DNA of 32,000 nt from assembly GCA_964591795.1 (NCBI GenBank), contig CAZQEL010000001.1, positions 52,779 to 84,778 of the forward strand, written 5' to 3'. This stretch comes from an uncultured archaeon. Lineage in GTDB: Archaea; Iainarchaeota; Iainarchaeia; Iainarchaeales; CSSED10-239. The number at the start of each line of letters is the position of its first letter. Within the stretch, counting starts at the first letter, position 1. The position numbers and the translations under genes are program-made. Positions 1-26,200 of the stretch are shown here, piece by piece. The notes beneath the pieces are model-generated. The model saw only the letters and a list, made by a program, of their open reading frames with translations. It was not told the origin of the DNA and made no database searches.

Positions 1-3000
1 GTAATAAAAACCATTTAAACTTTGAATTACTTGTTCTTGAGGACTTAAAGGATATAATACTGTTCTTTGTGATATGAATTCTTCAGCTTTATTTATTCTG
101 TTTAAAACAACTTGAGTTAATTGAGTTGAATCACAATATTTTTCAGAACATCTATTAATATCTTGAACTGACCAATCCCAATCTAATAATACATTTGGAA
201 CTGCACCAGAACCAGTTTTACCAGTTTTACCAGTATCTGTAACACAATCTTGAACTACCAAATTATAATTTTGTGTTTCTTCTGGTTTAGTAATAAAAAA
301 TCCAAATCTATAGTTTCCAATCTTTTCAGAATTTGCAAATGCAGGATCTTGTATTTCAACTGAATCTTCAAGTGTTGGATTAAATTCATAGTTTTTAAAA
401 TAATATTTCTTTGAATCATTATTAATGTGACTATATATGTTATCAGTAAAACTAAATTGTAATGGTTTTATTCCAGATTGCTCTGGCCATAATGTTTCAT
501 TAACTTTACAAGTATAAAACATTTCAGTTTCAAGTTGTATTCTATTTCTAGTTGGTTTTGCACCATAACATTTAATTGATTGAGATAAAACTCCATCTTC
601 AATTGTTGGATTAAATGAATTATCACAATTTCTATTTTTTATTATTTGAGAATAATAATCTTCAATACTTGAATTAGGATTATTACATAAAACATAATCT
701 GTTAAAGATAAATCAGCGTCTTTTGTAAGTCTATCTTTAATTTTATTATAAATTTTATCTGAATCTTGTGTTCTTGTAATTAAATCATTATAAGTATAAT
801 ATCTAGCACCAGTAATATCAAAAATATTTAAATAAGAAGATTCATCGGATACATCATCTACAGTGATTATTTTTAAAAATTCACCATTAGAAAGTGTATA
901 CTTTTGAGGAACATCTAAATATTTATTATTTAAAACTGGATATGCAAATTCATTTTTCCAAGAAGTTGCTGCCCAAGAAACTAAAACAATCACAGCTAAA
1001 GTAATCCAACCATAAACAGGAATAGCAGCTAAAACTGCAGCAAATCCAACAGATCCAGCTGCAGTAGCACTAGCAACTGCAATTTCAAGCGCTGCAGCAG
1101 TAGCAATACTTAAACCAACCGCAGTAACAGTTGCTGCAGCTAAAACAGTTATACCAATTGCAGCAGCAACAGGCATAGCACCTTCATCAGTAGTACCCAT
1201 AAATTCTAAATTTTCTAAGGATTTATAATTCATTTTTTGGAAAGCATCATCTTGTTTATTAAAAGTTGATGACAAATAATCAGAAAAGGTAGATGTAACA
1301 GTAACTCCATTTTGAGCAATTTGAGCTTTATATTGTTCAACATCCTGAACTGTAGGAATAGAATTAACATAATCCCAAGGAGTCTGTTCTAAATTATTAT
1401 TATATAATCTTACACTTTCAGAAACTTTAGTAGTATCTGAAATTTCAATAAAAGGATCCTCCATCCATAAACCACTAGAATCTTTTGCATTTATTTTTAA
1501 TAAAGCATAAGCTGAAGTAACTTCACGTCCAATATTATTAACAACAGATATTTTATTGTTTAAAACATAAGCACCAGGAGCAATAGTTGAATCTTTTCTT
1601 TTAATTGAAACAGTTTTTTCTGAGTCTAAAAGACTAAAATTTAAAATACCATTTTCTTCATCAGTATTATCAATAGATAAATCTCTACAGGAATAATCAT
1701 TTCCTTCACAAAGATCCATTTTTAATGTTGCTTTACCAAAACATTCGTTTTTAATAGTTAGATCTTTAGCTACAGTATCCTCAAGAACAAAAAGACCACC
1801 AGAATTAATTTTTTCTCCACCATCATAATAGGATAAACATTGTGTTAAATCCATAATTGATATATTTGCTTTTAATAAAATATCATTAGAACCTTTATTT
1901 ACAAAAGTTAAACCCTCTTCTGTTTCTACTTGAGCATTTAAATAAATATCAGTTTTTACTTCTGCAAATTTAGCACCATTTGTGTTAAATGCAATTTCAA
2001 CAGTATATTCTTCTTCAGGTCTCATTTCATTAATTAAAATTCTATAATAATTTTCTGATAATTGTATTTGATTAGAAGCACCTGAACCAATTAATTTTAA
2101 GAAATAAATACCATATCTATCTCCATTAGATTTAATTTTTGCTTGAACATTCTTAATTGTTATAGGTAAATTTCCTTCTTTAGAGATACAAGTGTTTTTT
2201 ATTTTTAAAGTTGTAGATTGGGTTGTTGTTGAAACAACTGTATTCCATTCACCAGCACTTTGAGTAACAACTAAACAATCATCTTCTAAAACACCGTTTC
2301 CAACAGATAATTTTACATTAACAGGAATATTAAATAAATATTTTTGATTATTTAATAAATAAGTGGCAGTTAAAGCACCTAAAATATTTTCACTTACAGA
2401 ATGTGATTGAGCACTTTCAGAAGGTGCAAATTTAATTAAAATTTCTTTAGATTCGTTTGCAGGTATTACAAAACCATCAGGTGTACTAATTATTTGATTA
2501 TTAAGATAATTAACAGTTTGTAAAAGATTTAATAAATAGGATTTATTAAAAGAAACATCCTGTTCATTAAATTGATTTAAAATTAATGGATATGCAGTTT
2601 TATTTTTAAGTTCTAAAGTATATATCTCCCCATCCATATTTGTCTTATGAATAAATACTTCTAATGGTGAATTTGAATTAATTATTTCAGAATTATTAAA
2701 AATATCAATAATATCTCTAGTAATTGAAAATTCAACTGGATCTGCAAAATATTTAGATTTAATAGATTCAATTATAAAAGTTTCTCCTGGTCTTAAAGAT
2801 GGAAGACTAATTGTAGCTTTTCCTTCTGCATCAGTTGTTCTACCAGTTGAAACTATAGTTGTTCCAGTTATTGTTTTTTGTAAAATATTAATATTTGCAC
2901 TCTCAACAGCATTTCCAGTAGTATCTTTAACAATTACGGTTAATGTAAATGGAACACCAGGTACAATATTTTTAGGTTCATAATCAACTATCATTTTATC

Positions 3001-5755: not shown

Positions 5756-8677
5756 TTAATTTATTATACATCCATCGTTGTTTTCAATCCATATAGTTTG
5801 TGATTCACTTGATAGATCTCCACCGAATAATGGTTCTGATACTGCAATAGGATTATAATATATTTTTAATGAATTACCAGTGTAATCAATACATGCTTTC
5901 TTTTCATTAACAAGATTAAAAATCTCACTTACAAACTTAATATCATTTTCTAAAATATTATTAAGTATAACAGAGTTTGATCCACTTGTATTATCTTTTG
6001 TAAAAAACAATGCTGAATCATCAGCTGAATCTTGATATAATACACTTTTACCATTACCTGTTTTAAAATTACTTGGAGTGTATAAAACTGTTCTTAAATA
6101 AACATTTCCATGTCTTGTAATATTCTTTGCTTCCCATTCAACACCATAAGACACTGCTTGACTTGGAGTAATTGGTGCAAGTCTTGATGAAAGTGCATGT
6201 ACATCTGGTCTTTCAAGATAAGCTTCTTGTACTGATATTCCTGAAAAGTCAAGACAATTACCAATACCTGTCCATGGAACTAAAGTTCCTGAAGTAAGTG
6301 CTGGTTCTCCACCTTGATTTTGTGGTCCACCAATATCAAGTTTATAGAAACTATAAGCATCATTTGCTTGATTAGATACTTTTAAAGCAACTGGAGTTGC
6401 TCTTGATGGTATAAAATAAAGTTCTGGATTTGTTTTATTTTCAGATAAATTAATACTAAGTAACATACCTCTTGTTGAACCGTTATTTAAGAAAGAAAAT
6501 TCATTTGGAAGACGTCCATATTCCTTTACACTTACAGTATTAATTGTATTTGATTGTGTAAAAGGTTCTGTTCTTAAATATTGACCAGTTGCAGTTTCAA
6601 CAATTGTTACAATATCTCCAGTAAAATCAATACCATAACCTTGTCTTGCGTTATCTGAATCAACACCTACAAGTCCATCAAATGGCATATAATAAAGAGG
6701 AGAATCTCTTTCTGGTGAAATTTCTCTAGATAAAACTATATCTACATTTCCTGTAATATTGCCAGCATCATCAAACAATCTCCATTGATCGTCAAATGTT
6801 ACATCTAATAAAACATTATATCTTCCAGGACCTTGTAAAATAAGTCTTCCTGATTCTGAATCCATTGTTGATTTAAAATTAAAATTATTAGATATAAAAT
6901 ATTTATAATATTTTTCAATATAATCTGTTGGAGCTGCAGTTATTGTAAATCTATAATATCTATCAAAATCTGATTTAAAATCATCAGAATATCCATCTTT
7001 CATTAAATAAGATCTAAACTCAACTAATGAAGTATCAATCTTTGTGTTCTTTGAATATAAATTTAAATTCCTTGAAATCTTTGGTAAATTACAAACTTCT
7101 GAATTTGGAGTAAATATGTTTTCTAAAATATTATCCAATTCTGAATCTACAATACTATATGGGGTATCCAATATTAAAACTGCAGAAACTTTTAAACTTG
7201 TAGTATCATCTAAAATTATTCCAACATCAAATGATTCATTTCCAACATAAACTTCATTATTAAAATCATTTATATTTAAAGTAATTAATTTTGATTCAAC
7301 TTGAACATTATTTTTATAAACTGTTAAACTTAAATGACCATATGGAGAAGGAGATATATTTTTATCAGCATTATTAAAACCACCTTCTATTCTATAATCA
7401 ACAGCAATATATCTATCATCATAACTTGAATTTAAAATAGTTAGACCTAAGTTATCTGTTGCAGAAACTAAATTTTGAGTAACACCTGGTGTTGGACAAG
7501 TGAAATCTCCTTTATTTGTTTGAACAAAATCATCTATTTCTTTTAATTTATTTAAAAGTTCAATTGAGAACTGTGTTGAATCACAAAAGATTGATTGTTT
7601 ATCAGCTTCTCCTGTTAAATCAGCATCACACCAATTAAGAGTATTTACATACTTATCTGAAATTAATTGTACCTCTTGATTATATCCAAAATCCCAATTA
7701 AATGCAATCTTTGGTAATATTTCTGAACCTGTTTGTCCTAAAAGCATTCCACTTTCAGTAACACAATTAACTTGATCAAGATTAGTATTATCAAGCACAT
7801 CTCTTGTATAAGAATTAAATATTAATTTAAATGGTTCAGTTACAATTTCATCTTTTCTATTATCATTTATTATTTTTAAAAAATTATCATTTCCACTTAA
7901 AACTCTACTAATTTTTATTAATGGAGTACCTGTTGAAAAAGGTGAAGCTAAGAAAGTTAACCAATCTCCACTTAAAAATTTACCATTAAATATATCGTTT
8001 GGAGTTAAACTATAACTAATATCATTTATATATGTTGATTTAGGATATTTAACAACAAAATTTCTATATTCGTATTCGTTTTCAATAGTTTTTGCAGGAT
8101 CTTCAAATAATATTTCTCTTTTTTGAATATCTAAAACATCATTATTTGAATCTAAAACTTGTGTTAATTTTGTTTTGTCAGCAAGTCTAAATGTTGGTGA
8201 ATTGCTACCATTATCTATTTCTATTAAATTTTTAACTTTTATAAACTGTGCATCAAGAACATTTTTATCTGTTAATAAAATATTTTCATATGGTAAATAA
8301 TCGGGTATATCCTTTGCATCCAATTTATTAACATATACAAAATCTTCAACATGTTCAATTGTATAATCTTTAATGTCATTTGAAATATTTACTTTATCTC
8401 TATCAAGCGCAAAATTAATTTCAACTTTTGATAATGAACTAAAAGTTTTAAATGCTGAAAAAGCACCTACTAAAATTCCATGAACAACAGGACTTAATCC
8501 AAATACTTTGGTTAAAAGACCACCTCCAGAACTAAATAGTGAATCTACTAATCCCTTTCCAACAGCTTCTGTAGCATCATCATTGCCGGGTGCAGCTACA
8601 GGCACGCTAATAAAAGAAAGCATTAGAGTTATCATTAATATTATTCCTAGGAATTTAGTTTTATTTTCATATTTCAT
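5756..8677 (-). CDS. Secreted or N-anchored protein B, a 'headless' paralog of the C-terminal modules of the giant proteins
   Basis: 973-aa ORF in track, TAA stop. AAGGTG lies 8 nt upstream of the ATG. N-terminal hydrophobic signal/anchor FLGIILMITLMLSFISVPVAA. No CarboxypepD_reg array. By eye it shares GKG..LFSS with E, NCVTESG..WDF and FCDSTQF with A and D, YYMPFDG with D and E, and a C-terminal FNLVNEKKAC..KIYYNP with D. Confidence 0.93.
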   Translation of the reverse strand: MKYENKTKFLGIILMITLMLSFISVPVAAPGNDDATEAVGKGLVDSLFSSGGGLLTKVFGLSPVVHGILVGAFSAFKTFSSLSKVEINFALDRDKVNISNDIKDYTIEHVEDFVYVNKLDAKDIPDYLPYENILLTDKNVLDAQFIKVKNLIEIDNGSNSPTFRLADKTKLTQVLDSNNDVLDIQKREILFEDPAKTIENEYEYRNFVVKYPKSTYINDISYSLTPNDIFNGKFLSGDWLTFLASPFSTGTPLIKISRVLSGNDNFLKIINDNRKDEIVTEPFKLIFNSYTRDVLDNTNLDQVNCVTESGMLLGQTGSEILPKIAFNWDFGYNQEVQLISDKYVNTLNWCDADLTGEADKQSIFCDSTQFSIELLNKLKEIDDFVQTNKGDFTCPTPGVTQNLVSATDNLGLTILNSSYDDRYIAVDYRIEGGFNNADKNISPSPYGHLSLTVYKNNVQVESKLITLNINDFNNEVYVGNESFDVGIILDDTTSLKVSAVLILDTPYSIVDSELDNILENIFTPNSEVCNLPKISRNLNLYSKNTKIDTSLVEFRSYLMKDGYSDDFKSDFDRYYRFTITAAPTDYIEKYYKYFISNNFNFKSTMDSESGRLILQGPGRYNVLLDVTFDDQWRLFDDAGNITGNVDIVLSREISPERDSPLYYMPFDGLVGVDSDNARQGYGIDFTGDIVTIVETATGQYLRTEPFTQSNTINTVSVKEYGRLPNEFSFLNNGSTRGMLLSINLSENKTNPELYFIPSRATPVALKVSNQANDAYSFYKLDIGGPQNQGGEPALTSGTLVPWTGIGNCLDFSGISVQEAYLERPDVHALSSRLAPITPSQAVSYGVEWEAKNITRHGNVYLRTVLYTPSNFKTGNGKSVLYQDSADDSALFFTKDNTSGSNSVILNNILENDIKFVSEIFNLVNEKKACIDYTGNSLKIYYNPIAVSEPLFGGDLSSESQTIWIENNDGCIIN

Positions 8678-8685: not shown

Positions 8686-8691
8686 CACCTT
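8686..8691 (-). promoter_or_regulatory. Shine-Dalgarno AAGGTG for gene B
   Basis: Minus strand reads AAATTAAAGGTGTAAAATATATG, with an 8-nt spacer. Confidence 0.55.
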
Positions 8692-8724: not shown

Positions 8725-11700
8725 TTATTTATATGAACAACATGGTTCATAAACCCCATGACTTGTATTTGAACATGCATTAAAAGTTGCAAACACTTTT
8801 CCAGTTTCAATTTGACAACCTCTTGCTCTATCAGTTCCATCACATCTATAGACATATTTATCTCCATTTGGTTTAATACTAAATGAAGCATCACAAGTCT
8901 CACTTGTGTTATCCAGAACTTCTAATAAATTTAAAGCAACAGCAGCTTCATTTTTATAAACGTCTAAATTATCTTGTAATTTAGATGATGTATTAAATTT
9001 TGTTGCAGCATTGTTATATGCCCCCATAGCACTATTCCAAGAATTTTCAGTATATTCTGACGCACTATAATTAGTGCCTGAAAAAGACATACTTTCTGCG
9101 CTTGCAAGAACTATTTCAACAGCATCAAAAGTCTGAGCAGCAGGGGATTTACTCACAAGTTTTGCAATCAAACTATTTAATTCAGTATTCTCTGCAACAG
9201 TAATACTTTCTTTATCTTTTAAAGAATTTGCCTTAGTAGCAAATGCAATCCAATTATTATCTGCTTCATAACTAGCAGCTAAATAACTAGTTCCATTAAC
9301 ACTATACCCATCAGTAACAACATCTACTGTATATGTACTTGAATTATTTGGTGTTACTGGATCAGTTGAAGGATAATCTGATTTAAATTTATCAAAAGCT
9401 GATTTTAATGAATCATAAGCAGAATCTCTTACTGCAATATCAGTACCTGCTAAAGCGTCTTTTAGTTTTTGATTTAATTCATTTAAATCTATCCAATCTT
9501 TATATTCTGAAGAAGTAGAATTTGTAAAAACTAATTCACCATTCTTTCTTATAGTAGTAGGGCTAGTATAAGTTTCAACAAATGTATCAACTTTTTTTAC
9601 TAACGCCTTTTCATCAATATTTTGAGGATTTGATGTTACTGAATTAACTCCAGAAGCATCACTATTTTTAAGTGCAGTTTCAAGTGCTACACTAGCTTCT
9701 TTAATTTCCCCCTTATCTCCAGTTGCAATTGCAGTTTTTAAAAAAGCTGCAGCAGCAATAACTTTTGAATCTGTACTTTTTTCTACACTATCAAGTAAAC
9801 TTTGAGCCTTATCTTTACTTGATGAAAACAACTTACCTTGCAAAAGAGCAGATAAAGTTCCAGATAATAATCCGTCTCTTAAAAAAGAAACAAAAGCCAT
9901 TTGCCACTTAGCATTATCAGCAACTTTGAATGTTCCGTTAACTTCTGTACCATAACATAAATTGATTATGTTTGTAGTATCATAGGCAGCAGCATTCATC
10001 ATAAGGCCTGTATTTTCAGAATAATCTGATCTATATAAATCAAACTCATATCTTTCAAGATCAATACAATAATCTTGAGGTCTTACATAAACTTTTATTT
10101 TTTTAATTAAATTTTCTGTTTGTCTAGAGTCAGTCATACCACTGTATACATTTAAGATATATGCACCAGGTGTAGCACCCATAGATTTCACAGTAACATT
10201 TTCACTTGTGCCTGATGCAGGAACTGTAATTTCGTTTCTAGGAGTTACAATTAAACCCTTACAATCATCACATGAAAGTCTATAGGTTATATCAGTAGGA
10301 CATGCTTTATTTTCAATAGTAAATTCATCAGCAATTTGTCCAACATTTAAAGTGTTCTTTGAAAATACAGCACAATCTCTAAGATTTGTAACATCAATTT
10401 CAAATGCAACTTCAGTTAATAATTCTTGGTTTCCTGTTCCAGTACTGTTTAAAGATCTAAATTGAATTGTTCCTTTTACAGTTCCTTTCATTCTACCAAT
10501 TGGTTCGTATTTTAAAATAACAGGATAACTTCTATCTCTGTCAAAAGTATCTAAAAGATTTCTATAGTTACCATGTGTAAGTTCTACAAATCTATTATCT
10601 ATACTAACTACAAATTTACCTTGAGGATTAGATTCAAACAGAACTCTTGCTTCAAGACCACCTGATAAAGGCATATTCTTTCCGTTAATTGTACAAGTGT
10701 TATTAATCATAAATGTAGTTTCAACTGGTTTATCTAAAGATACTTCTTTCCAGAAAGTATTAGATACTGCAAGACAATTTGCATTATCAAGCATTCCATC
10801 AAATCCAATATTAATTGTTATTGGTATTTCAGTAACCCATTTATTATCTCCACTTGCAAGAACAATACTAAGTCTTGATGATAAGTTTTGAACTTCACTA
10901 ATTGTTTCTGCTCTAGGATTTAAACTTATTTTTAATGGTATTTGTTTTGAAGAATCTGTGTTATCAGGAAAATCTGAAAGTGTATCAAATCCTTTCACAA
11001 CAGTTCCCACACTATTTAATAAATCATTATTTATGCTTAAAACATCTACAACAGTTAAATTTTTACCTTTTATTTCTAAACTTTCAATTGTTAAGTCAAT
11101 TGGTGAAATATTACTTATTGTAAAGTTTTCTGTTTTTTGTTTTTCATTAAATATATTTAATGAATATGCTAATTTTTTAGGTGTTATTTTAAATAATTTA
11201 TCTGTTGCTTTCATATCTGTAATACTTGTTTCGTATTCAGGAGAAGTAACATAAACATATATAACATCATTTGGGCCTTGTGCAGGGATTTGACTAACTG
11301 TAATTTCTCCTGTTACAGGTATTGGTAATGGACCTTTAATAATGTCTTTAAATTTATCTTTAATAGTTACAGTAGCATCTCTTACTGGAAGTAAAGTTGA
11401 TGCATCTTTTTCTTTAATCAATAAATTAAAATTTTTACCTGATGGAATTATTTGTGGATCAACTGTAACTTTGAATGTTTTATCAGAAGACACATCAATA
11501 AATAATTGATTTACAAATTTAATTTTTTGATCAGAAATAAACTTAATTGAAAGATTTCTAGTACCTTTAAGTTTAGGCATAAATGTTATTTCACCAGTAA
11601 CTTTTTGTCTTTGTAAAAGTTGAGTTATACCAATATCAAACTCATAGGCAATTGGATTACTTTCCTCATATACTCCACCATTAGGTAGTATTATTTTTAT

Positions 11701-14313
11701 GTTTTTAAAATCAAGTCCTTCATCTATATTTTCTAATATAAATCTTGAAGATAAATATCTTGATTCTGGTGAATTATTTGTTAATGTAAAAGTATATTTA
11801 TATTTTTTATTTGGTTTTGCTCCAAAACCATCTGTTACTTCATATCTTAAATCATCTAAAGTGTCAACTATATTTGAAGAAAAACAAAAATCTGTTGAAC
11901 AAATAAGTTCGTCACCAACACCATAGGTCATACTTTCATAAACATCATAGTATTCTACATTTTCATTAGGACCTAAATACTCACTGTATGTTTCATAATC
12001 ATCATTATTATTAAAACCATAACCTAATGCAAATATTTTAATTTCCTCACCAAATGCAGCAATATCTTTAACATTTATTGTTGCTGCAATTTCATATGAG
12101 TTATAGAAACCTAATATTCCAGAATAATCTATAGGTCCTTTTTTTAAAGTTGCTTGAACCCATTTAGAATTACCTTCAGTTGAACTATCATCATCACTAA
12201 AACCTTCACTTTCATGAGGAGCATTTAAATTAAATTGTGTATATTTTAAAACACTATCAATATATGGTACATCAATATTTTTAATGAAAATATTATCATT
12301 TTCAATCATTGAACTTGTACCTGTTCTTAACATAAAACCAATTTCATCAAAACTATCGTCACCAGTTCTATTTTGTGGAACTAAAAAATTGTATCTAACT
12401 TCATAGTCAGTACCTGCTGTAAGATTATCTTTAACTTCTTGCCCTTCTTTATATATTCCTACAAAAACCATTCTTGGTTTTGTGTTAGAACTATTTTGAC
12501 TAAATAAAGTTACATTTAATTCTGCATTGTTAGTTGCAGTTACTCTTATAAATCTTGATTGAGTTTTACCATAATCTCCTTCTATTCCAGGAGAAGCCAC
12601 AACATAATAATCGTTATCAGCATCAAGGAAAAATTCCATAGTTCCTTGTGAGTTTGTAAGTTCGCTTTTTATTGGTATTGCTGGCATAAAATTATAATAA
12701 CTAAATCTATCATATACATCTACTCTTGCATATGGTACTGGGTTATCATCTTTATCAACAACAGTTACCTTAAGAGAACTTTCATTTATTCCCATTGGAA
12801 TATTTATAACACCTGTATTATTAGGGTATTTAACATTAAATTCAAATTCTGCAGATTCTCCAACAGTACTTCCTTTAACAGCTTTTGCTATATATTTACC
12901 TGATGAAATATCAATTACAACATTACCATCATAATTAGCTAATGCTGGTTTATAGTCAGTTAAAAATCCAGTTTCTGCATCATATAAAACAACTTTTGCA
13001 AATTTAAAACCTTTACCATCCCAAGTTATAACTCTTACATTTAAAGGTTGTAAAGTAGCTGGTGTTATTAAAGTTAATGGAATAACAATAGGATTTGATG
13101 GAATTGTACTACTTGCAAACACAAGTTTTCTTTGGATTAAATAACCCTCAGCATCAACAACTACGTTATAATCTCTAATTTCAGGAACTGTAAAAAGCAC
13201 ATATCCATTAACATCTGAATATTTAGTTTCAATAACATTATTTATTTCAGATTTTAAACTTACTTCAGCATTTGAAATTGAAACATTTGAACCAATTATT
13301 CTAACTGAAATATATCCTTTAACATCTGAATTTAAAACTATATTTTTAGTTGAACTTTCTGATAAATAATATGTTTGAGATTGAGATGAATAAATTGGAA
13401 TTATTCTAACATCTGAAAAGTTTGCTATATACTCACCAGAAGCTAAATTTTCAATAGTACAATTTCCTGTACTTGATGTTGTACATGTATCAATTGTACC
13501 AAAATTATTTGTTAAATTAATTTTAATATTTGATAGGGTTGCACCTAAACTATTAGCTACATTAAAAACTAATTTTAAGTCATCAGTGTCTCCAAAATTA
13601 ATTTCTTGAGGATCAAGAATAATTGTTGAAGTATTATCATTTATTGCAAAGTTATATTTAGATAAATAACCATCAAAAGTTATTGAATCAATTGTAAGTG
13701 TACATTCAGGAGATGCATCCACTACAATTAAACCATTTGAAAATGATTTAGGACTAGGTGCAATTACACTATTTAAACATTTAAAAGAAACTGAACCTGA
13801 TTTATTAACTACTTGATTTGTTTGTGAATCAATAGCACTAAAAGAATAGCTAACTGTTTCTGGAGTTAATCTTATTGGTTCTAAAGCAAGAGTTACGGTT
13901 TCATCATTATCTTCAGAAAAGAAAAATTCGTTAAATGTATCATAACCATCTTCTGCAATATCTATCTGATAAGATGAATTTTTTAGGACTCTAAACTCAT
14001 CAGTTAAACCATCAGCATTAGTGTTTATGCTTGTCATGTCATTTGTTGTAGTAACAACTAACGACAGATTTTCTAAAAAGGTACCACTTTCTGCATCAAT
14101 TACCTTAAATTGAATACTTACAGAATCACCAGCTCCTCCATTAGGGACAATTAGTAAGATTAATCCTGCAATTAAAATAACCATCAAAAGAATACACAAA
14201 ACAAAAGAAGGCATAACCTTATCTATTTTATCAGTAACTTTATATATTCCGGTTTTTTCTACAAAATCATAGTATTTATCTTCTAAATAATAGTAAAATT
14301 TTTTTAGTCCCAT
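8725..14313 (-). CDS. Giant N-terminally anchored surface protein, paralog C, with CarboxypepD_reg/PEGA-like repeats and a Cys-knot C-terminus
   Basis: 1862-aa ORF, far too long to be open by chance in AT-rich DNA. ATG at 14313 with GAGGT 8 nt upstream; TAA stop. N-terminus MGLKKFYYYLEDKYYDFVEK... followed by the TM helix FVLCILLMVILIAGLILLIV. Confidence 0.95.
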   Translation of the reverse strand: MGLKKFYYYLEDKYYDFVEKTGIYKVTDKIDKVMPSFVLCILLMVILIAGLILLIVPNGGAGDSVSIQFKVIDAESGTFLENLSLVVTTTNDMTSINTNADGLTDEFRVLKNSSYQIDIAEDGYDTFNEFFFSEDNDETVTLALEPIRLTPETVSYSFSAIDSQTNQVVNKSGSVSFKCLNSVIAPSPKSFSNGLIVVDASPECTLTIDSITFDGYLSKYNFAINDNTSTIILDPQEINFGDTDDLKLVFNVANSLGATLSNIKINLTNNFGTIDTCTTSSTGNCTIENLASGEYIANFSDVRIIPIYSSQSQTYYLSESSTKNIVLNSDVKGYISVRIIGSNVSISNAEVSLKSEINNVIETKYSDVNGYVLFTVPEIRDYNVVVDAEGYLIQRKLVFASSTIPSNPIVIPLTLITPATLQPLNVRVITWDGKGFKFAKVVLYDAETGFLTDYKPALANYDGNVVIDISSGKYIAKAVKGSTVGESAEFEFNVKYPNNTGVINIPMGINESSLKVTVVDKDDNPVPYARVDVYDRFSYYNFMPAIPIKSELTNSQGTMEFFLDADNDYYVVASPGIEGDYGKTQSRFIRVTATNNAELNVTLFSQNSSNTKPRMVFVGIYKEGQEVKDNLTAGTDYEVRYNFLVPQNRTGDDSFDEIGFMLRTGTSSMIENDNIFIKNIDVPYIDSVLKYTQFNLNAPHESEGFSDDDSSTEGNSKWVQATLKKGPIDYSGILGFYNSYEIAATINVKDIAAFGEEIKIFALGYGFNNNDDYETYSEYLGPNENVEYYDVYESMTYGVGDELICSTDFCFSSNIVDTLDDLRYEVTDGFGAKPNKKYKYTFTLTNNSPESRYLSSRFILENIDEGLDFKNIKIILPNGGVYEESNPIAYEFDIGITQLLQRQKVTGEITFMPKLKGTRNLSIKFISDQKIKFVNQLFIDVSSDKTFKVTVDPQIIPSGKNFNLLIKEKDASTLLPVRDATVTIKDKFKDIIKGPLPIPVTGEITVSQIPAQGPNDVIYVYVTSPEYETSITDMKATDKLFKITPKKLAYSLNIFNEKQKTENFTISNISPIDLTIESLEIKGKNLTVVDVLSINNDLLNSVGTVVKGFDTLSDFPDNTDSSKQIPLKISLNPRAETISEVQNLSSRLSIVLASGDNKWVTEIPITINIGFDGMLDNANCLAVSNTFWKEVSLDKPVETTFMINNTCTINGKNMPLSGGLEARVLFESNPQGKFVVSIDNRFVELTHGNYRNLLDTFDRDRSYPVILKYEPIGRMKGTVKGTIQFRSLNSTGTGNQELLTEVAFEIDVTNLRDCAVFSKNTLNVGQIADEFTIENKACPTDITYRLSCDDCKGLIVTPRNEITVPASGTSENVTVKSMGATPGAYILNVYSGMTDSRQTENLIKKIKVYVRPQDYCIDLERYEFDLYRSDYSENTGLMMNAAAYDTTNIINLCYGTEVNGTFKVADNAKWQMAFVSFLRDGLLSGTLSALLQGKLFSSSKDKAQSLLDSVEKSTDSKVIAAAAFLKTAIATGDKGEIKEASVALETALKNSDASGVNSVTSNPQNIDEKALVKKVDTFVETYTSPTTIRKNGELVFTNSTSSEYKDWIDLNELNQKLKDALAGTDIAVRDSAYDSLKSAFDKFKSDYPSTDPVTPNNSSTYTVDVVTDGYSVNGTSYLAASYEADNNWIAFATKANSLKDKESITVAENTELNSLIAKLVSKSPAAQTFDAVEIVLASAESMSFSGTNYSASEYTENSWNSAMGAYNNAATKFNTSSKLQDNLDVYKNEAAVALNLLEVLDNTSETCDASFSIKPNGDKYVYRCDGTDRARGCQIETGKVFATFNACSNTSHGVYEPCCSYK
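12499..14130 (-). other. Protein-level array of CarboxypepD_reg/PEGA-like repeats in C (residues ~62-605)
   Basis: Examples: LKVTVVDKDDNPVPYARVDVYDRFS...TNSQGTMEFFLDADNDYYVVASPG and LNVRVITWDGKGFKFAKVVLYDAETGFLTDYKPALANYDGNVVIDISSGKYIAKAV. Confidence 0.6.
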
Positions 14314-14353: not shown

Positions 14354-17300
14354 TTAATTATTTTTAAAGTTATCTGGATTATGCCATAATTTTATTTCTG
14401 AAGAATCTGACATAAAACATACGTTATTATTTTTAATTTCATTAAATACTTGTGTCATATTATTATATGTTAATCTTGGAGACACATTATTCATATTTAA
14501 ATTATATATTGTAAATTGATTATCATTATTTGTTGTTGCTGCGAAAACCTTTGTATATTGTGTAAACTTAGGATTTGCATATATTGTTACTTTTTGATTT
14601 GTGTTATCAGAAAGTAAGAATAATTTTGATGCAACATCTAAAGATGCAATCTCAGTATTATTTTCAGATACTTCTATAAGTTTTAAAGCATAGTTCTTAC
14701 TAAAGTAAAATGGTCTTGAATTTGTAAAATTATAATTTACCATATCCTTTAATGTAAATATATAACCTTCTTGTAAACTTGACCAGTTATCAGTAGTATA
14801 AGTTGTTTTAATATACTCTGGTAAATATGGAGCTCTTAACACATTTAAAGATTTTTGATAATCTGGATTAATTGGCATATAGAATAAAATATTTTGTTTA
14901 TAATCGTCAGAAATTCCATTTACTAAATCACCAATAGTTATTGATACATTATTATCATTTATATTTAAAAGCTTTACTATATAAGTACCAGGAACTAAAA
15001 TATTTTTATCTTCTGTATACTCAAAATCATATTTTTTATATATATTATTATTATATTTAATTAATATTTTATTATTATATTCTTCTTTAGTTTGTGAAAA
15101 CTTCTTAAGATTAGAAGTAAACACTTGTGGTGATGCACCAAAGTAAACTTCCATATCTGAGTATAATGCAACTTTGTCTTCACTTGTTAAGCCTAAGTCA
15201 TTATAATTATCTAAGAAATATTTAACTGTAGTATAATTATAACCTCCAAGTGAAATTATATTACTACCATTTACGGTTAATTTATGTGTTTTAATTATTG
15301 TAATTTCTTTTAGTTCATCAGGAATATTATTTAATAATGATTCTGCAGAAGTAACATATGCATTTATAGAATTGTCACCTTTTGAGAATGCATCACAAAC
15401 ACCATCACATAAATTAACTTTGATTGGGTTTACTTTAATTGTATTATTTGCAATTTCAAAATAAATATCTCCAAGTTTAACAAAGTTAGTTGTGTTACTT
15501 AAATCATCTAAACCATTTGCTTTAAATTTAAGATAATCATAGAATTGTTCTTGATCACAATAATACTCATTACAAGTGTTTCCAGTTATGTTTGAATATT
15601 CAAATAAGATTTTATCAAATCCATATTTTTCATAAGCTTTAGTACCTGTAAATCCATCTTGGTTTTCTGAAAGATCAGGAGCATTACATAAAATTAAATC
15701 TTGTGTATCTAGATCATCTGAATCTGCATTTGGATCAGAAGGTTCAATAAAACTAAGTTCATTAGTTGCAACTTTAGTATCAACACCAATGAAAGTATGC
15801 CCTTGTAAATAAGTTTTACTACTTTCTTCATTTATTGCCCATAATTCAAATTTTTCTTTGAAAAGATCATAAATTGGTAATTTTGAATTTATAACAAAAT
15901 CATTTTCAAATGCTTCAACTGGTCTTGTAAAACATAACTTGAATACATTTTTATTTCTAGTAACAAATTCAATACTTACTTTTAATGGATCATAGGTATC
16001 AGGTAAATAGAACAAACCAATATCTTTAATATGTGAAGTTTCTTTAATCCCAGTTATAGGGAAGTCCTTAACATAACCAAAGAAACATCTAGTTACTTCT
16101 GGTTCTTGATCTATTTGTTTAAATTTATTAAAAGCTAATTCTGCTTCTGGAACTTGTATGAATACAGCATTTCTTGCAGAATCTATTTTATAAGTTAATT
16201 TTACTGAAGTATCAACAAACTCTAATTCTTCATCAGTCATATCCTGATCGCCAGTGAATTCATTTAAAATATCCCAGTTATCTTTATTATCTAAAATTAA
16301 CCACTGAAAATTATCTGTAAGTTGCATACCAATATTATTATAAATTATTGATGATTGACCCTGTGGTGATTGAAGACCAACACTAAGTATAAACTTTAAA
16401 TTAACTGTATCTTCAACATCAATTAACATTCTTCTAAATGTTGAAACTAAACCAGCTGCAACTGAGTTTGTTTTATATTTATTTAAGTATTCTTTTGCAG
16501 AGATTGTTTTTGAAATTTCAGGATTTCTTCTTAATGCAATTTCCCAAACTTCAATTGGATCATTAGTTTTTAAATCTGTTAAATAATCAACCTTTATAGG
16601 TTGAATTCTACCTTGCATTTCTCCTACATTTAAGAAAGAAACACCATCAAAATTTAAATCCATTAAATCAAGATAATTAACTTCAACAAGTCTGTATCCT
16701 TCAGAAAAGCATGAGTTCATAACTTTTACAATTTGGTATTTAGGATCTACTATATTAGAAAAATCTAATTTTTGTGGAGTTACCTGTATACATTTTGAAG
16801 GCATAAAACTTATTGGCAATGTTACACTAACTGGAATTTTTCCAACTAATGAATAAGCAGTACTTGATGAAACTGATGGTTTTACTGAAACAGGAATATT
16901 AAAACTACCCATTTCTTCTCCACCCATTAAAAGAACTTCTTCTGAATCTCCTGGATTTAAAGAAAATTCAGCGTCACTTGTGATTGTAATTCCATAGTTA
17001 GGATCTAATTTTAAATCAACTGCTTCTAAACAATTATTTTTAATATATGTAGGTCTTACAGGACAATTCATATTATTTGTATTACCTTGTGCACCATAAT
17101 TTCCTTGAGGATAACCAGATGAAAAATTATAATTATTATTATAACCAGACATATTTTGAGCTTGACCAGTAGGATAATTATAGGGATTAACACTTGATGC
17201 TTGAGTACCAGTATAACCTGTTTGACCAACTAAATTATATTGAGGATAATTATATCCTTGTTGTTGAGTATAATACCCAGAACCCTGTTGATATTGATTA

Positions 17301-21448: not shown

Positions 21449-23113
21449 CTAATTTGAAACACATGCAGCAGTACCAGATTCTCCTGCTTCATAAGTTTTA
21501 CAACTCCATCCAGGATCACTTGTTTGGTCTACAATTGTAAATAAATTAAAATAACCATTATTATTTAACGATGCAAGAGGTACAGGATCAAAAAATGAAT
21601 ATTGAGAATAACTATCTTCTAATTTCACATATATTTTTGTAGTTTCATTTGAAAGAATATATCTCGGATTAGTTTCATTAAATTCAAAAAGTAAACTAGA
21701 TTTTTTAGGAGTATGACATCTAAGATATTGATTATCTGGAACTTGATTAATCACAGAAGTATCATTTAGGTTAAATAAATTACCATCTGCATCAATAGAC
21801 AGTCCAAGATTTGATGCTTTATTAAAAAATAATATATCAAATGTATCTGAAGTTAAAGTAGTTAATGAACCATTAAAATTAATCAATTTTTCAGAAATAT
21901 TTTTTGTAATTTTACTATTAGAAAGCATTTTAACATCACATATTTCAAAATCATAATTAGAAGTTAAATTATTTAAACAAGATAATCCATTTTCACTAGT
22001 TAATTTTAATCCACCCTCATAACCTATAAAACTTCTATTATCTAAATTATTTTTAACAGTAGTTTCTAAAAGATCTAAAAATATTGATTGAATATGAGAT
22101 GTTTGAAGATTATAATCAAATGAATCTGATAAATTAATAGTAGTTCCTAAAACTATAATTCCATTTCCATTATTTGCTTGAAAATTAATTACTTCTTCAG
22201 GTGCTTTACATTCTGCTCCTATAAATCCATTTTTAGTAACTGTTTTATACAAGTCTGTTCTCGGAGCACAACTATCTATATCACAAATACCAACTTTTGC
22301 ACTGTTTAATGCATAATTAATATGAGGATTCAAAAAACCCTTTGAATTATAAAGATTATTTAAAATATATTCACTATTTTCTTCTTTTTCAAGATCAACT
22401 CCAAGAGCAAAATTTCTTACAGTTCGCATTGCTTGAAAACCTCTCCAAGGTAGATAAATTCTATATTCTCTTCTTGCAAAAACAGGTCTCTGAATAACTT
22501 GATCATCAATATTTCTTTTAACTACAATCATTGGTAATTTTTCATAATCCGTTGACGATAACTTTCTTGTATCTATTTTAAAATAAAGAGTACCAATACA
22601 AAAGTCAGATGCTTGTTCACAACCAATAACTTTTATTTTTTCATCAGAAGCAATAAAAGCTTTTCCAATTATATCTGCAAGTTCAACTTGATTATAATCA
22701 GGAATTGTAATTGTATATCCTAAAGGAGGATTAGTATACTCTAAAGACTCAGTTACAGATAATGCAAAATAAGTTTCAAAACTATTATCAAAAAAAATTT
22801 TATTAGCATAATTCTCAATAAATCCATTCCAATCCATAGTTGCAAATTGTCTTGTAATAGTTACAACATTCTCTGGTTCACTTCTATATTCAGCCCATCT
22901 TTCTCTAAAGCTTACAACAAAAATATTAAATGCATCTGCTCTTGATAAATCTGCAATTGTCATTAGATCTGATGTTTTTGATTGATCTTGAATTAAAGAT
23001 AAATAGTTTTCTTCAGTTTGAACCATATTATATACAAAAACAATAGTTATTGATACAAGCATTAAAGCAATTAAGGCAGTAAAAAGATTAAATCCTCTTT
23101 TATTTTTAAGCAT
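21449..23113 (-). CDS. Large type IV pilin-like protein with a class III signal peptide
   Basis: The track ORF 21449..23128 begins at a TTG. The in-frame ATG at 23113 has GGTG 9 nt upstream and gives MLKNKRG/FNLFTALIALMLVSITIVFVYNMV. That is a short basic leader, then Gly, then a hydrophobic helix of about 22 aa, the layout of prepilin-peptidase substrates. There is no Glu at +5, which is more archaeal than bacterial. C-terminus has a Cys pair, CKTYEAGESGTAAC. TAG stop. Confidence 0.9.
   Translation of the reverse strand: MLKNKRGFNLFTALIALMLVSITIVFVYNMVQTEENYLSLIQDQSKTSDLMTIADLSRADAFNIFVVSFRERWAEYRSEPENVVTITRQFATMDWNGFIENYANKIFFDNSFETYFALSVTESLEYTNPPLGYTITIPDYNQVELADIIGKAFIASDEKIKVIGCEQASDFCIGTLYFKIDTRKLSSTDYEKLPMIVVKRNIDDQVIQRPVFARREYRIYLPWRGFQAMRTVRNFALGVDLEKEENSEYILNNLYNSKGFLNPHINYALNSAKVGICDIDSCAPRTDLYKTVTKNGFIGAECKAPEEVINFQANNGNGIIVLGTTINLSDSFDYNLQTSHIQSIFLDLLETTVKNNLDNRSFIGYEGGLKLTSENGLSCLNNLTSNYDFEICDVKMLSNSKITKNISEKLINFNGSLTTLTSDTFDILFFNKASNLGLSIDADGNLFNLNDTSVINQVPDNQYLRCHTPKKSSLLFEFNETNPRYILSNETTKIYVKLEDSYSQYSFFDPVPLASLNNNGYFNLFTIVDQTSDPGWSCKTYEAGESGTAACVSN
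23021..23113 (-). other. Class III (prepilin-type) signal peptide of the pilin-like protein
   Basis: MLKNKRG | FNLFTALIALMLVSITIVFVYNMV. The putative cleavage site is after Gly7. Confidence 0.6.
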
Positions 23114-23122
23114 CTGTATATA

Positions 23123-23126: not shown

Positions 23127-23190
23127 AATATTTATAAAATATTAATTAAAATATATAGAAGTAGTTTAGGTTTTTATATATTTCTTTTTT

Positions 23191-23232: not shown

Positions 23233-26200
23233 TTATTTAATCTTTTTTATTGAACAAGAATCAATTCTTGTAGTTGGCATTGATGAAATAATACTTGGGT
23301 CTTGAGTATTATATGGATTAATATCAATTACATATCTTGACTTATAATCCCCATCTGAAGGTTCAATATATTCCATGCTTGCAACATACAAAATATTTTT
23401 TGTAAAAGTTGCATCTTTTTTAAATTCAATTGAATAATTTAAATTTGTCATACCATCATCTTGAAGACTTCTAATACCAGCCCAATTACCTAAAAGACCA
23501 CAACCAAGTCCTCTTGCAAATCCACCAACTCCTCTTACCCACTTAGCTGATTTTCCAACTTTAGCTACTTTTGATCCATTTAATTTTTTAAAATCATTTA
23601 ATAATTCATCAGGAACTACATATTTACCTGTAGTTGGATCTAAAGTTAAACCTTTTAATTTATTACTTAAACTAACTAAAGCAGCTTTATCTACTTTCTT
23701 TGCTACTAATTGTGAATTTAAAGTAGTTAAATCAGAAGAAGCTTTACGTGCTGCTTTATTACCAATTTGTACTTTATTAGGGTCTAATTTTACTTTTCTT
23801 GGATTTAAATTTGATCTTGCATTATTTTTTTCAATAGCTTTAATTTTATCTTCTAAAACCTTAATTGAGTCATCAGTATTTTTAATAAGTCCAGTTTTAG
23901 GATCATCTAAACTATTTACAATATTATTACGTGAAACATTATCAATTAAATTAACAGCACTAGTTGTTCCTACACCAGATATATGTAAATTAGATTTTGC
24001 TTGTATAAGTCTATTTGCGAATAAATCTTTACCTACCAAATGACTATTTTTTCCAACCATAGATCCATTTTTTATTATCCTAGAAAAATCATCAATTTCA
24101 GTTGAAGATAATTTAGTAAAATCAATTGGATTTGTATGAGAATATATTTTTGTATATAATTGATTAAATTTAGCTAAATCAGTAGGATCTGCAGCAACGA
24201 ATTTAATTGGATCTACACCAAGAAAATATCTATCAAAATTTTTTAATTGACTATTAAATAATTTAAATTCTTGAGATGACAAACCAGTTCCAGGAATTAT
24301 TGGTTGAACCTGAGTAAAAGGATCTGTACCTAAATCTAATACAGTTTCGCCTATTCTTAAAGGAGCAGCAGCAGCAGAAGAACCTGTTTTAAAAATACCT
24401 GCAGTTAATGAACCCATAGTACCTGCAAACCAAGTACTAACTGATTCTGCAGCAGGACCAAATAATTCAAAGTTCTTTGATGAAAACAAACTTCCTAAAA
24501 CTAAATCAATACCCTTACCTATTCCACCATCTCCATTATACATAGTAGATGCAAACACATCTAATGCAGGAAGACCACATGAAAATGCAAGACAATCAAT
24601 TGCAGCTCCAAAAATTGATGCTGGCATAACTAAAGCTGATACCGCATAACATCCAGCACAAACTGCAGAACATTTACCAAAGTAAATTCCAGCATTGGTT
24701 AAGGATTTATTAAGTTTTGAATTATATTTTTGATCAGAATCTTTTATAGTACAATTTAAATTTTCATAATCAAAAAACAACTTTGTATTCCTTGAACTAT
24801 ATTCAGAACTATTAATTACCTTTTCAATAACAGCACAAAACTCTTCTTTTTCTTCAGGAGAATATATTTTACTCCAATCAATAAGTGCATAGTTATTTTG
24901 AGGGAATACTTTATTATCTTCTTTATTATGTTCAGTAACAATTGTTTGATATGTTTTTAATAAAAAGCTTTCAGGAGTAATTGCACATGAAGTCAATAGC
25001 ACATCAACATTTGCAATTCTATTTCCAATAACACCTTCACCCGAATAAATACTGTTTGCAGTAATTTTAATTTTTTGATTTACAAACAAACTAATATCAT
25101 TTGGATTTTGAGGTTTAACACAAAATAAAAAGTTACTATCTTTATTTTGTATAAGGTTTAAATTAATATTATCATTTAAAGAATCGCCTTCATTTAATTT
25201 AAATCCACTAATTAAGCCTTCTCTTTTTTCAGAAGTTATGTTTAAAGTTTCATCAATTGAGGATTTAATTTTCAAAGAAGTACAACTAACATCTTCATTT
25301 AAAGGAATAATAGGTTCTTTAGTTGTAAACATTAAATCTCCTGCTTTAATAGTATCTAAAATAAGCATATAGGAATTATCTTCTGAGACACATACTTTCA
25401 AAGAAGTGTCATTCTTAACTACCATTGCACGTATTACATTGACAAAGTCTTTTGAAACTTTACTTGGAACTAAATTATTTGAAGTAACATATTTTTTATT
25501 TAAAATAACATTTATTTGTTCAGGAGCAGATATATTATAATCTTTAAGATCACTAAATACTATTTTTCCAAGTGCAACATTATTTTCTGTAATATCATCT
25601 ATTGAAACATTTAAAGTATTATTTCTACTAGATAAAATATCATAGGAATAAACATATCTTGTATTAGGATCAGTTCCAAATTTACCAATAGCTTTAATTA
25701 AATCTTTAGAAAGATTAGAATCACCTGTAAATAAAGTTACCCAACTTCCTTCTCTTTGATTTTTAGATAAACCTAAATCCCAAGGCATGAAATTTAAATA
25801 GTTTGTAATTTTCTTTTTACAATGTGATGTTTGTTCATATTTTAAAACGTTTAAATAATAGTAAGCTCTATCTGGATAGATTGAATCTGGACTAGCTGCA
25901 ATAAATCCATCAATTTCAACTGTGTATTTTCCACAACCCTTAAATTGATTAGATAAAAATATTTTATTTCCACCAACATAAACACCCAAAGCACTTTTGT
26001 TATTTATTAAAAATGGATTTGTTTCAATAAAATAATTCTTAAAAGAATAATTTGATTTGTTTAAAGCATATTTAACAAGATCAACTGAAACCATATCATT
26101 TTGCATATAAAAAGTAAATTCTAATGGATTTATATCTCCAATCTCAGAAATTTTACAAAATCCATTTCTTGCATCAGCTACAGAACAACCAGTATTCATT

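What the first reader, a model, noticed from the sequence alone, without database searches (positions are those of the whole stretch)
5756..8677. B is a headless paralog of the giant proteins' tail modules (gene fission, or a stand-alone distal subunit)
B has no FY.YLEDKY motif and no CarboxypepD_reg array, but it reproduces the tail modules of its neighbours in order. AVGKGLVDSLFSSGGGLLTKVFG...FKTFSS matches E GIGKGIDLVLGSLFSSKNFELFG...FKTGSS. QVNCVTESGMLLGQTGSEILPKIAFNWDF matches A VQDCVTDTGKTGKTGSGAVPNVLLDWDW. FCDSTQFSIELLNKLKEIDDF matches A YCDSTQLTQVVLNRINKAEEF. GPGRYNV...YYMPFDG matches D FYMPINPD and E NFMPWDLG. The C-terminal VSEIFNLVNEKKACIDYTGNSLKIYYNP matches D TQVFNEIKNNNVCFMSDSSEIKLWHNP. 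The spacing from the hydrophobic module to the CDSTQ motif is about 300 aa in both A and B. Either the tail works as an autonomous unit, which could also mean the giants are proteolytically processed, or B arose by fission.
Basis: seen in the sequence. Interest (0 to 1): 0.65.

Follow-up and report, generated by a model that had tools for sequence, protein, structure and literature searches.

The report
Detached tail of a giant protein
Gene B encodes the far-end module of a giant archaeal surface protein that has split off from its stalk (the gene just upstream, C) and gained its own export signal, which suggests this uncharacterised 700-residue module can be made and exported as a separate subunit.

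Summary
B (5756-8677, minus strand, 973 aa) is a real, conserved gene of a Forterrea-like Iainarchaeia (Diapherotrites, DPANN) archaeon. Residues ~265-950 are a ~690-aa, Cys-rich module with no Pfam, NCBIfam or PDB relative. This module ends more than 100 giant proteins (2000-3250 aa) across Iainarchaeia. The match to A is highly significant once a full-length A ortholog is used (E 3e-34). The match to D holds only at profile level (P 3e-6, collinear). In E there is only a vestigial internal core (P 5e-5 after removing an Ig-like insert). The E "hydrophobic module" match is at chance level and out of order.

The main new result is that B is not a copy of A, D or E. Unsplit giants in other Iainarchaeia map head-to-C (E 1e-110) and tail-to-B (E 1e-57). 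B tails group with these "C-headed" giants (92% bootstrap). C has no tail module. So C plus B is one ancestral giant, split in the variable linker between two hydrophobic segments. B then gained a Sec-type signal peptide and its own ribosome-binding site. A second, independent split at the same linker occurs in a 47%-GC lineage (100% bootstrap). Function, probably distal contact or adhesion, is inferred rather than shown.

The parts
5756..8677 (-). Gene B, 973 aa: the stand-alone 'tail' protein
   Evidence: ORF found. Twelve orthologs of 962-1023 aa. About 10 full-length clusters at 50% identity in 1.84 billion representatives.
8686..8689 (-). GGTG Shine-Dalgarno-like element 8 nt upstream of the B start codon, inside the 47-nt C-B spacer
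   Evidence: Sequence read. Its function is inferred.
8591..8677 (-). Sec-type signal peptide, residues 1-29 (MKYENKTKFLGIILMITLMLSFISVPVAA)
   Evidence: Read from the sequence. The same n/h/c pattern appears in all B-type proteins. No signal-peptide predictor was run.
8423..8566 (-). Gly-rich amphipathic hydrophobic module H2, residues 38-85
   Evidence: Weak direct profile hits to the equivalent module about 100-180 aa before the tail in other giants. An iterated profile of the pre-tail region collects 15 of 19 C-headed giants, plus 2 of 37 classed g2 (both borderline C-like heads) and 0 of 5 A.
7886..8422 (-). Pre-tail linker and beta-rich region, residues 86-264
   Evidence: AF2 strands at 162-216 with pLDDT 50-70. 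Included in the g1-specific pre-tail profile.
5759..7885 (-). Tail module, residues 265-973: about 690 aa with 8 conserved Cys
   Evidence: The B profile matches the C-terminal end of most of 131 tail-bearing ORFs in 73 loci and 589 representatives. AF2 pLDDT is about 90. No Pfam, PDB or Foldseek analog.
7568..7585 (-). C365-D-S-T-Q369-F motif, the most conserved element of the module
   Evidence: C365, D366 and Q369 are invariant in 82 sequences. The motif is kept in D as YYCDQEQF.
7034..7486 (-). Ig/CARDB-like beta-sandwich insert, residues ~398-548
   Evidence: AF2 strands at 409-522. It is taken to account for the domain-sized Foldseek matches (CARDB, C2, GH2 Ig-like; about 100-190 aligned columns), but those outputs do not give query coordinates. 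It is absent from the D and E versions.
8725..14313 (-). Gene C, 1862 aa: the head-and-stalk partner that lost its tail
   Evidence: C is the best window match for the heads of unsplit giants, for example L060 7-1451 to C 3-1490 at E 3.5e-110. It has no tail module.
9823..9906 (-). C hydrophobic helix H1 (residues ~1470-1497, AKWQMAFVSFLRDGLLSGTLSALLQGKLF), the last segment shared with unsplit giants
   Evidence: Sequences.
8728..9813 (-). C variable post-split region (residues 1501-1862), which ends in a Cys-rich knob
   Evidence: It differs between C orthologs beyond residue ~1550. It has no match in the unsplit giants.
1..435 (-). Start of the tail module of A (residues 1767-1911). The rest is cut off by the window edge.
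   Evidence: The iterated profile matches A 1767-1905 at E 4e-27. The full tail is seen in the A ortholog from L003.
958..1182 (-). Hydrophobic module of A (residues 1518-1592)
14357..15709 (-). Degenerate, shortened tail module of D (residues ~1857-2307)
   Evidence: hhalign results. HMM domain hits.
25771..26334 (-). Possible vestigial internal core of the tail module in E (residues ~1613-1800)
   Evidence: hhalign P 5e-5 to 1e-4 with the insert-free profile. This was a post hoc test.

Best explanation
B is the distal, C-terminal third of a giant membrane-anchored surface protein, now encoded as a separate gene.

In most Iainarchaeia one polypeptide of about 2400-2700 aa carries all of the following, in order:
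- an N-terminal FYxYLEDKY motif and a transmembrane anchor;
- a ~1400-aa array of Ig-like and CarboxypepD_reg-like domains;
- an amphipathic helix, H1;
- a variable linker;
- a Gly-rich hydrophobic segment, H2;
- a ~690-aa Cys-rich tail module.

In the Forterrea-like clade this gene broke in the H1|H2 linker. C keeps the anchor, the stalk and H1. B keeps H2 and the tail, and has acquired a ribosome-binding site, a start codon and a Sec-type signal peptide.

These steps are shown: the homology, the orthology of C+B to single giants, the position of the break, the conservation of the split, and a second independent split in another lineage.

These steps are inferred. B is exported on its own. 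Everything after the N-terminal anchor is extracellular, because a signal peptide directly precedes H2 and the tail has 8 conserved Cys. B probably re-associates with the end of the C stalk, perhaps by H1-H2 packing. There it would serve as the distal contact or adhesion module in cell-cell interaction, the role proposed for these giants in Forterrea.
For: Homology of the tail:
- B against the full-length A ortholog gives E 3e-34.
- The B profile hits 131 ORFs in 73 Iainarchaeia loci. In nearly all of the strong hits it covers profile positions ~260-950 and lies within 30 residues of the C-terminus of proteins of 2000-2800 aa.
- There are 589 representative proteins database-wide.

Fission from C:
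- Unsplit giants map head-to-C and tail-to-B. For example, AR10 L060:845-8176 aligns 7-1451 with C 3-1490 at E 3.5e-110, and 1791-2430 with B 272-950 at E 3.6e-57. Five other giants behave the same way.
- C-head bit scores of 326-447 mark exactly the upstream giant of each tandem pair, so gene order [giant1][giant2] corresponds to [C][B][A].
- In the tail tree the B family is monophyletic in 100 of 100 bootstraps, B plus the C-headed giants separate from A and g2 in 92 of 100, and A orthologs fall inside g2.
- The pre-tail profile of B collects 15 of 19 g1 giants, 0 of 5 A, and only 2 borderline g2.
- C has no tail module (P 0.36-0.69).

The split is real rather than an artefact:
- The same C|B|A order occurs in L001, L003-L006 and L010 (L008 has two extra genes between C and B; L012 shows C then B before the contig ends).
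- There is a 47-nt spacer with GGTG 8 nt before the ATG.
- Signal peptides are present in all B-type proteins.

Recurrence:
- In L074 (GC 47%), a 1840-aa C-like protein is followed by the 983-aa signal-peptide protein P0030. Its tail nests among unsplit giants in 100 of 100 bootstraps and never groups with B.

Context:
Against: There is no functional evidence at all. The tail has no sequence or fold analog; Foldseek gives TMq <= 0.11 against PDB and BFVD.

Scoring B tails against separate g1 and g2 HMMs was ambiguous, at about 0 bits difference, whereas A scored -100 bits. Assignment of B to g1 therefore rests on the NJ tree, the pre-tail region, the head mapping and synteny.

The tree is a distance tree, not maximum likelihood.

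Re-association of B with C is pure inference. In L008 two extra genes lie between C and B.

The signal peptide was judged by eye only.
Confidence: 0.8

Rival explanations
1. B arose by partial duplication of the tail of a neighbouring giant (A, D or E), giving a true headless paralog, while C lost or never had a tail independently.
For: B lies directly upstream of A. B and A share the module. g1-versus-g2 HMM scoring of B tails is neutral.
Against: B tails share only 25% identity with A tails, against 29% with C-headed giants of other lineages. The tree separates B+g1 from A+g2 in 92 of 100 bootstraps. The pre-tail region of B is g1-type, with 0 of 5 A recovered. The tails of D and E are far more degenerate. 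C-headed giants elsewhere always carry this tail.
Confidence: 0.07
2. The C/B boundary is an artefact: a frameshift, an in-frame stop or a misassembly within one giant gene, or a recent pseudogenisation.
For: Several other loci show giants broken near the same low-complexity linker without a signal peptide on the downstream piece, for example L035, L028 and L065. These look like frameshifts or assembly errors.
Against: The split recurs in independent assemblies from ENA, Logan, NCBI and JGI. B orthologs down to 35% identity keep their length (962-1023 aa), their start and their signal peptide. C has about 360 aa of its own sequence after the break. A spacer with an SD-like GGTG is present.
Confidence: 0.03
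3. The listed similarities are chance motif matches between compositionally biased (26% GC) proteins, with no common origin.
For: Pairwise, the B-D and B-E motif matches are no better than shuffles. The E hydrophobic match is compositional.
Against: B-A gives E 3e-34. Profile hits reach E 1e-98. D gives P 3e-6 with collinear motifs.
Confidence: 0.02
4. Unsplit giants are normally cleaved post-translationally in the H1|H2 linker, so the tail is always a separate subunit, and the fission merely hard-wires this. This reading is compatible with the best explanation and extends it.
For: There are two, possibly three, independent fissions at the same linker. The linker is variable and low in complexity. 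The tail is viable as an independently exported protein.
Against: No protease site or autoproteolytic motif was identified, and no proteomic data exist. A variable linker is in any case where breaks would be tolerated.
Confidence: 0.2

Closest known systems
The five large (>1800 aa) membrane-anchored proteins in a 42-kb region of Ca. Forterrea multitransposorum (Probst & Banfield 2018, PMC5905446)
   Same: This is the same gene cluster. L004 from the CP045477.1 genome holds the syntenic D-tail/C/B/A genes, with B at 64% identity. They have the same predicted surface location and the same proposed role in cell-cell interaction.
   Different: The text searched gives no sign that the paper dissects domains, describes the shared tail module, or notes that the 964-aa gene between two of the giants is the detached tail of one of them.
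Unsplit 'g1' giants of other Iainarchaeia, e.g. archaeon GW2011_AR10 (CP010424.1; L060:845-8176, 2444 aa)
   Same: The head is colinear with C and the tail with B. H1, the linker and H2 occur in the same order. A g2 giant follows downstream, in the position of A.
   Different: It is a single polypeptide with no internal signal peptide. The linker is 130-300 aa, in place of the stop codon, spacer and signal peptide seen here.
Giant repeat-rich surface adhesins with a distal ligand-binding region at the end of an Ig-like stalk, such as bacterial RTX/BIg adhesins. This comparison rests on my own knowledge and was not tested here.
   Same: The architecture is comparable: a membrane- or cell-proximal anchor, a long array of Ig-like domains acting as an extender, and a distinct module at the far end.
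   Different: The organisms are archaeal. The anchor is an N-terminal transmembrane helix. The distal module has no detectable relation to known adhesin domains. Here the distal module is a separate gene product.
SPEARE giant proteins of Nanohaloarchaeota (Hamm et al. 2019, PMC6642349). That paper appeared in the list but was not read here, so the comparison rests on my own knowledge.
   Same: They are very large surface proteins of DPANN archaea that have been proposed to mediate host contact.
   Different: No sequence relation was seen. The tail family found here appears in Iainarchaeia/Diapherotrites-type MAGs, apart from a few records labelled Thaumarchaeota, Chloroflexi or Micrarchaeota.

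Membership tests
Iainarchaeial giant-protein tail module (unnamed; defined here by profiles A1 and A4) | A significant full-length profile match of about 650-700 aa | tested here: met
   B 265-950 matches the tails of more than 100 giants at E 1e-46 to 1e-98, and 589 representatives.
Iainarchaeial giant-protein tail module (unnamed; defined here by profiles A1 and A4) | Conserved Cys set and the C-D-x-x-Q-F, PGxY, YYxPFDG and VC...WNP motifs | tested here: met
   Invariant or near-invariant columns in alignments of 82, 47 and 45 sequences. Cys conservation is 0.90-1.00.
Iainarchaeial giant-protein tail module (unnamed; defined here by profiles A1 and A4) | Preceded by a Gly/Ala-rich hydrophobic module about 100-180 aa upstream | tested here: met
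   B has the module at 38-85. The same arrangement is seen in most giants.
Iainarchaeial membrane-anchored giants (A/C/D type) | N-terminal FYxYLEDKY-like motif and transmembrane anchor, followed by a ~1400-aa array of Ig-like/CarboxypepD_reg domains | tested here: not met
   B has no Pfam hits and no head homology. B is therefore only the tail part of such a protein.
Product of gene fission of a g1 giant (C+B) | The two adjacent genes map colinearly, without overlap, onto one ortholog in relatives, and the partner lacks the module | tested here: met
   Searches show the mapping. Searches show that C lacks the tail. Searches give the phylogeny.
Thioester-containing proteins (alpha-2-macroglobulin/TED). 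Considered because the giant heads give bMG3/MG4 hits and because of the CDxxQ motif. | A CGEQ-type Cys/Gln thioester motif in an alpha/alpha-toroid TED, or a Gram-positive TED fold | tested here: not met
   The motif is C-D-x-x-Q (i, i+4), not CGEQ. There is no Pfam TED or A2M hit in the tails. Foldseek found no convincing TED or alpha/alpha-toroid match: the best global hits have TMq <= 0.11, and the one complement entry listed (C4b2) has probability 0.28.
Sec-exported protein with a cleavable signal peptide | A positively charged n-region, a hydrophobic h-region of 12-20 residues and small residues at -3/-1 | tested here: inconclusive
   The pattern is visible in B and in every B-type protein, but no predictor was available and cleavage is not shown.

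The most novel reading that the evidence does not exclude
The H2-plus-tail unit is a functionally autonomous subunit in all Iainarchaeia. In unsplit giants it would be released by cleavage in the H1|H2 linker and held on the stalk tip non-covalently. Its Gly-rich H2 segment and Cys-stabilised module of unknown fold would form the part that engages, and possibly inserts into, the partner cell's envelope. The repeated gene fissions at that linker would then be natural experiments revealing a two-component archaeal cell-contact apparatus built on a new protein fold.
Probability: 0.2. Interest if true: 0.65.

Novelty: new variant of a known kind. Interest (0 to 1): 0.45.

Why it matters
DPANN archaea such as Forterrea are thought to live off other cells. 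The giant surface proteins, which occupy about 5% of the Forterrea genome, are the main candidates for the contact machinery, yet nothing is known about how they work.

This analysis defines a large, unannotated module of about 690 aa, with 589 representative sequences and no Pfam or PDB relative, that forms the far end of these proteins. It shows that evolution has detached this module at least twice, at the same hinge, and equipped it with its own export signal.

The practical consequences are:
- It marks the domain boundary.
- It argues that everything beyond the N-terminal anchor is extracellular.
- It provides a naturally soluble-sized construct (B, ~940 aa mature) for expression, structure determination and binding studies, in place of a 2500-aa membrane protein.
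- It corrects gene-family bookkeeping, because C and B should be treated as one functional unit.

Tried and rejected
- The homolog search with the E tail (residues 1651-2645) returned nothing, not even E itself. This was a limitation of the method, because E orthologs were later found with the E head.
- AF2 with only the 12 B orthologs gave a useless model, with mean pLDDT 41. An 82-sequence alignment was too large to submit. The 47-sequence alignment worked.
- Foldseek against PDB and BFVD gave no global analog. The top hits, GH66 CITase and phage baseplate or tail proteins, have TMq ~0.1 and rmsd >25 Å and were disregarded.
- Profile searches against PDB sequences with A1 and A4 returned nothing. 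Pfam on 45 tails gave one marginal hit, Peptidase_C25_C, in one member.
- Scoring B tails against separate g1 and g2 tail HMMs did not discriminate.
- A co-loss analysis of the 8 Cys, meant to infer disulfide pairs, was uninformative.
- The D-family versus E-family profile comparison was not significant, at P 0.11.
- A thioester idea for the CDxxQ motif was considered and dropped for lack of any support.
- The sigma-70 promoter and terminator scan is not meaningful for an archaeon, and it showed no enrichment.
Full report
LAYOUT. The window has 26.5% GC, and every long ORF is on the minus strand. In transcription order the genes are:
- a 111-aa membrane protein at 31297-31632;
- E at 23233-31170 (2645 aa);
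- a 559-aa protein with a type-IV-pilin-like (class III) N-terminus at 21449-23128;
- D at 14354-21277 (2307 aa);
- C at 8725-14313 (1862 aa);
- B at 5756-8677 (973 aa);
- A, which starts at 5733 and runs off the window edge after 1911 aa.

The spacers between D, C, B and A are 22-47 nt. Searching public genomes with the B family places the organism next to Ca. Forterrea multitransposorum within Iainarchaeia/Diapherotrites, which are DPANN archaea. [quoted passage not shown]

CHECKING THE OBSERVATION. B has no Pfam or NCBIfam domain. A, C and D carry CarboxypepD_reg, bMG3, SpaA or Big_1 hits in their first ~1000 residues.

Within the window, only the B-A block is significant by BLASTP: B 297-385 against A 1822-1887 at E 1e-6, with shuffle z = 13. 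The window truncates A. Neighbourhoods of B orthologs gave a full-length A ortholog of 2426 aa. Against it, B 551-946 aligns with 2029-2410 at E 3e-34. The cognate B ortholog aligns over 289-921 with 1755-2392 at E 7e-36. So about 650 residues of B are homologous to the C-terminal end of A.

Profile-profile comparison of the tail family with the D family is significant and collinear through C..G.TG, yCDxxQF, PGxY, fYMP and the C-terminal VC...WNP. The figures are E 3.4e-5 over 636 columns, Prob 88% and E 3.4e-6, and P 5e-6 for the C-terminal block alone. D lacks the Ig-like insert and is about 250 aa shorter.

For E, the Gly/Ser-rich hydrophobic match is not above shuffles. The two E motifs are in the reverse order relative to B. 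With seven E orthologs the plain profile comparison is not significant, at P ~0.02. It does show two collinear pieces with B-like spacing. After deleting the Ig-like insert from the tail profile, these merge into one alignment covering E 1613-1798 (Prob 55-66%, P 5e-5 to 1e-4). I regard E as probably holding a vestigial, internal copy of the core of the module. That test was post hoc. C has no trace of the module.

WHAT THE MODULE IS. The B profile hits 131 ORFs in the 73 fetched loci. In nearly all of the strong hits it covers profile positions ~260-950 and ends within 30 residues of the C-terminus of a protein of 2000-2800 aa. These giants often occur in tandem pairs or triplets.

An exhaustive HMMER scan of 1.84 billion representatives finds 589 proteins at E <= 1e-3. 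About 10 are full-length B-type proteins of 960-1090 aa. The rest are giant C-termini or fragments.

The module has eight conserved Cys and several near-invariant motifs. The strongest motif is C365-D-x-x-Q369-F. It has no Pfam family and no PDB sequence relative.

With a 47-sequence alignment, AlphaFold2 gives a confident model, with pLDDT about 90 for residues 300-973. Foldseek finds no global analog in PDB or BFVD. It finds only domain-sized Ig/CARDB/C2-like sandwich matches, which I attribute to the beta-sandwich at ~405-525. Most giants also carry a Gly/Ala-rich hydrophobic module about 100-180 aa before the tail. B has the same module at residues 38-85, directly after a typical signal peptide.

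WHERE B CAME FROM. The heads of A, C and D are mutually homologous over about 1400 residues, but their ends differ. Unsplit giants from other Iainarchaeia align with C over their first ~1450-1500 residues and with B over their last ~650. For example, the AR10 giant L060:845-8176 matches C 3-1490 at E 3.5e-110 and B 272-950 at E 3.6e-57. C is always the best head match in the window.

C-like heads (326-447 bits) mark exactly the upstream giant of each tandem pair. Gene order [g1][g2] elsewhere therefore corresponds to [C][B][A] here.

In a bootstrapped NJ tree of 81 tails, the results are:
- the B family is monophyletic in 100 of 100 replicates;
- B plus the C-headed giants separate from A and g2 in 92 of 100;
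- the A orthologs sit inside g2.

Iterating the pre-tail region of B (H2 plus linker) against pre-tail regions collects 15 of 19 g1 giants. It also collects two borderline g1 giants, no other g2, and none of the five A orthologs.

The break lies in the variable linker between an amphipathic helix retained at C ~1470-1497 (H1) and the Gly-rich module retained at B 38-85 (H2). After the break, C carries about 360 residues of its own. This region is variable between orthologs and ends in a Cys-rich knob. B starts with GGTG-N8-ATG and a Sec-type signal peptide.

The split is present in every assembly of the clade that covers the region. It is also seen in B orthologs down to 35% identity.

RECURRENCE. 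A 47%-GC Iainarchaeon (L074) has the same arrangement: a 1840-aa C-like protein, then a 983-aa signal-peptide protein (P0030) with H2 and the tail, then a 2392-aa A-like giant. The P0030 tail nests among unsplit g1 giants in 100 of 100 bootstraps and never groups with the B family. This is therefore an independent fission at the same linker. P0048 (L075) may be a third event, grouping with an unsplit giant in 68 of 100 replicates. Other short tail-bearing ORFs in the loci lack signal peptides and look like frameshifted or misassembled giants.

MECHANISM (inferred). A cleavable export signal sits directly in front of H2, and the tail has eight conserved Cys. The simplest topology therefore places everything after the N-terminal anchor outside the cell. 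On that reading, H1 and H2 are not a membrane hairpin with a cytoplasmic loop. I propose that C forms the anchored stalk. B would be exported separately and dock on the stalk end, with H1-H2 packing or the C-terminal knob of C as candidate interfaces. B would then present the tail module as the distal contact element. No function of the tail can be read from sequence or fold. The repeated fission at one hinge is compatible with, but does not show, proteolytic processing of the unsplit giants there.

VERDICT. B is the detached tail of C, produced by an old gene fission that has happened at least twice in Iainarchaeia. The E evidence was mostly wrong, and the D evidence holds only at profile level. 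The phenomenon, gene fission of a multidomain surface protein, is ordinary in kind. The module is an undescribed family restricted, as far as these searches show, to Iainarchaeia-type MAGs, and the natural 'domain dissection' is useful. Interest is moderate.

Noticed in passing
window 21449-23128 (-): A 559-aa protein between E and D starts with ...MLKNKRGFNLFTALIALMLVSITIVFV. This looks like an archaeal class III (type-IV-pilin-like) signal peptide. It has no Pfam or NCBIfam family.
   Followed up: no
P0168 (2731 aa, NCBI source), a 25%-identity relative of the E head: Its precomputed Pfam list includes PF01464 (SLT lytic transglycosylase) along with CarboxypepD_reg. Some giants of this superfamily may therefore carry a murein-degrading domain, which would point to bacterial partners or prey.
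   Followed up: no
window 8728-9813 (-), C residues 1501-1862; L008:4925-5761: The post-split end of C is hypervariable between orthologs and ends in a Cys-rich knob (CDGTDRARGCQIETGKVFATFNACSN...CCSYK). In L008 a similar knob is a separate 279-aa protein that begins with a hydrophobic, signal-peptide-like N-terminus, and a further 1325-aa gene lies between C and B. This suggests further fragmentation of the locus.
   Followed up: partly
window ~17057-17464 (-), D residues 1272-1407: This is a 136-residue stretch with no charged residues. It is rich in N, Q, Y and G (prion-like low complexity) and is not hydrophobic.
   Followed up: no
window 24301-24693 (-), E residues 2160-2290: E has its Gly/Ala/Cys-rich hydrophobic module downstream of the vestigial tail core. 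It is followed by about 350 residues with no detectable relatives outside the E family. The module order is therefore permuted relative to A and B.
   Followed up: partly
loci L026, L034, L044, L050, L051, L060 and L068 (g2 giants): The hydrophobic modules of many g2-type giants contain a conserved CPxC motif (for example WCPPC or CPVC) inside a strongly hydrophobic, transmembrane-like segment. The Gly-zipper-like g1/B module lacks it.
   Followed up: no
window 31297-31632 (-): A 111-aa protein made up almost entirely of three hydrophobic segments lies directly upstream of E. It has no family match.
   Followed up: no
L035, L028 and L065: Several giants in other MAGs are broken into pieces of ~1340-1490 aa and ~760-1090 aa near the same linker, without a signal peptide on the second piece. 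These could be assembly frameshifts in the low-complexity linker, or incipient fissions.
   Followed up: partly
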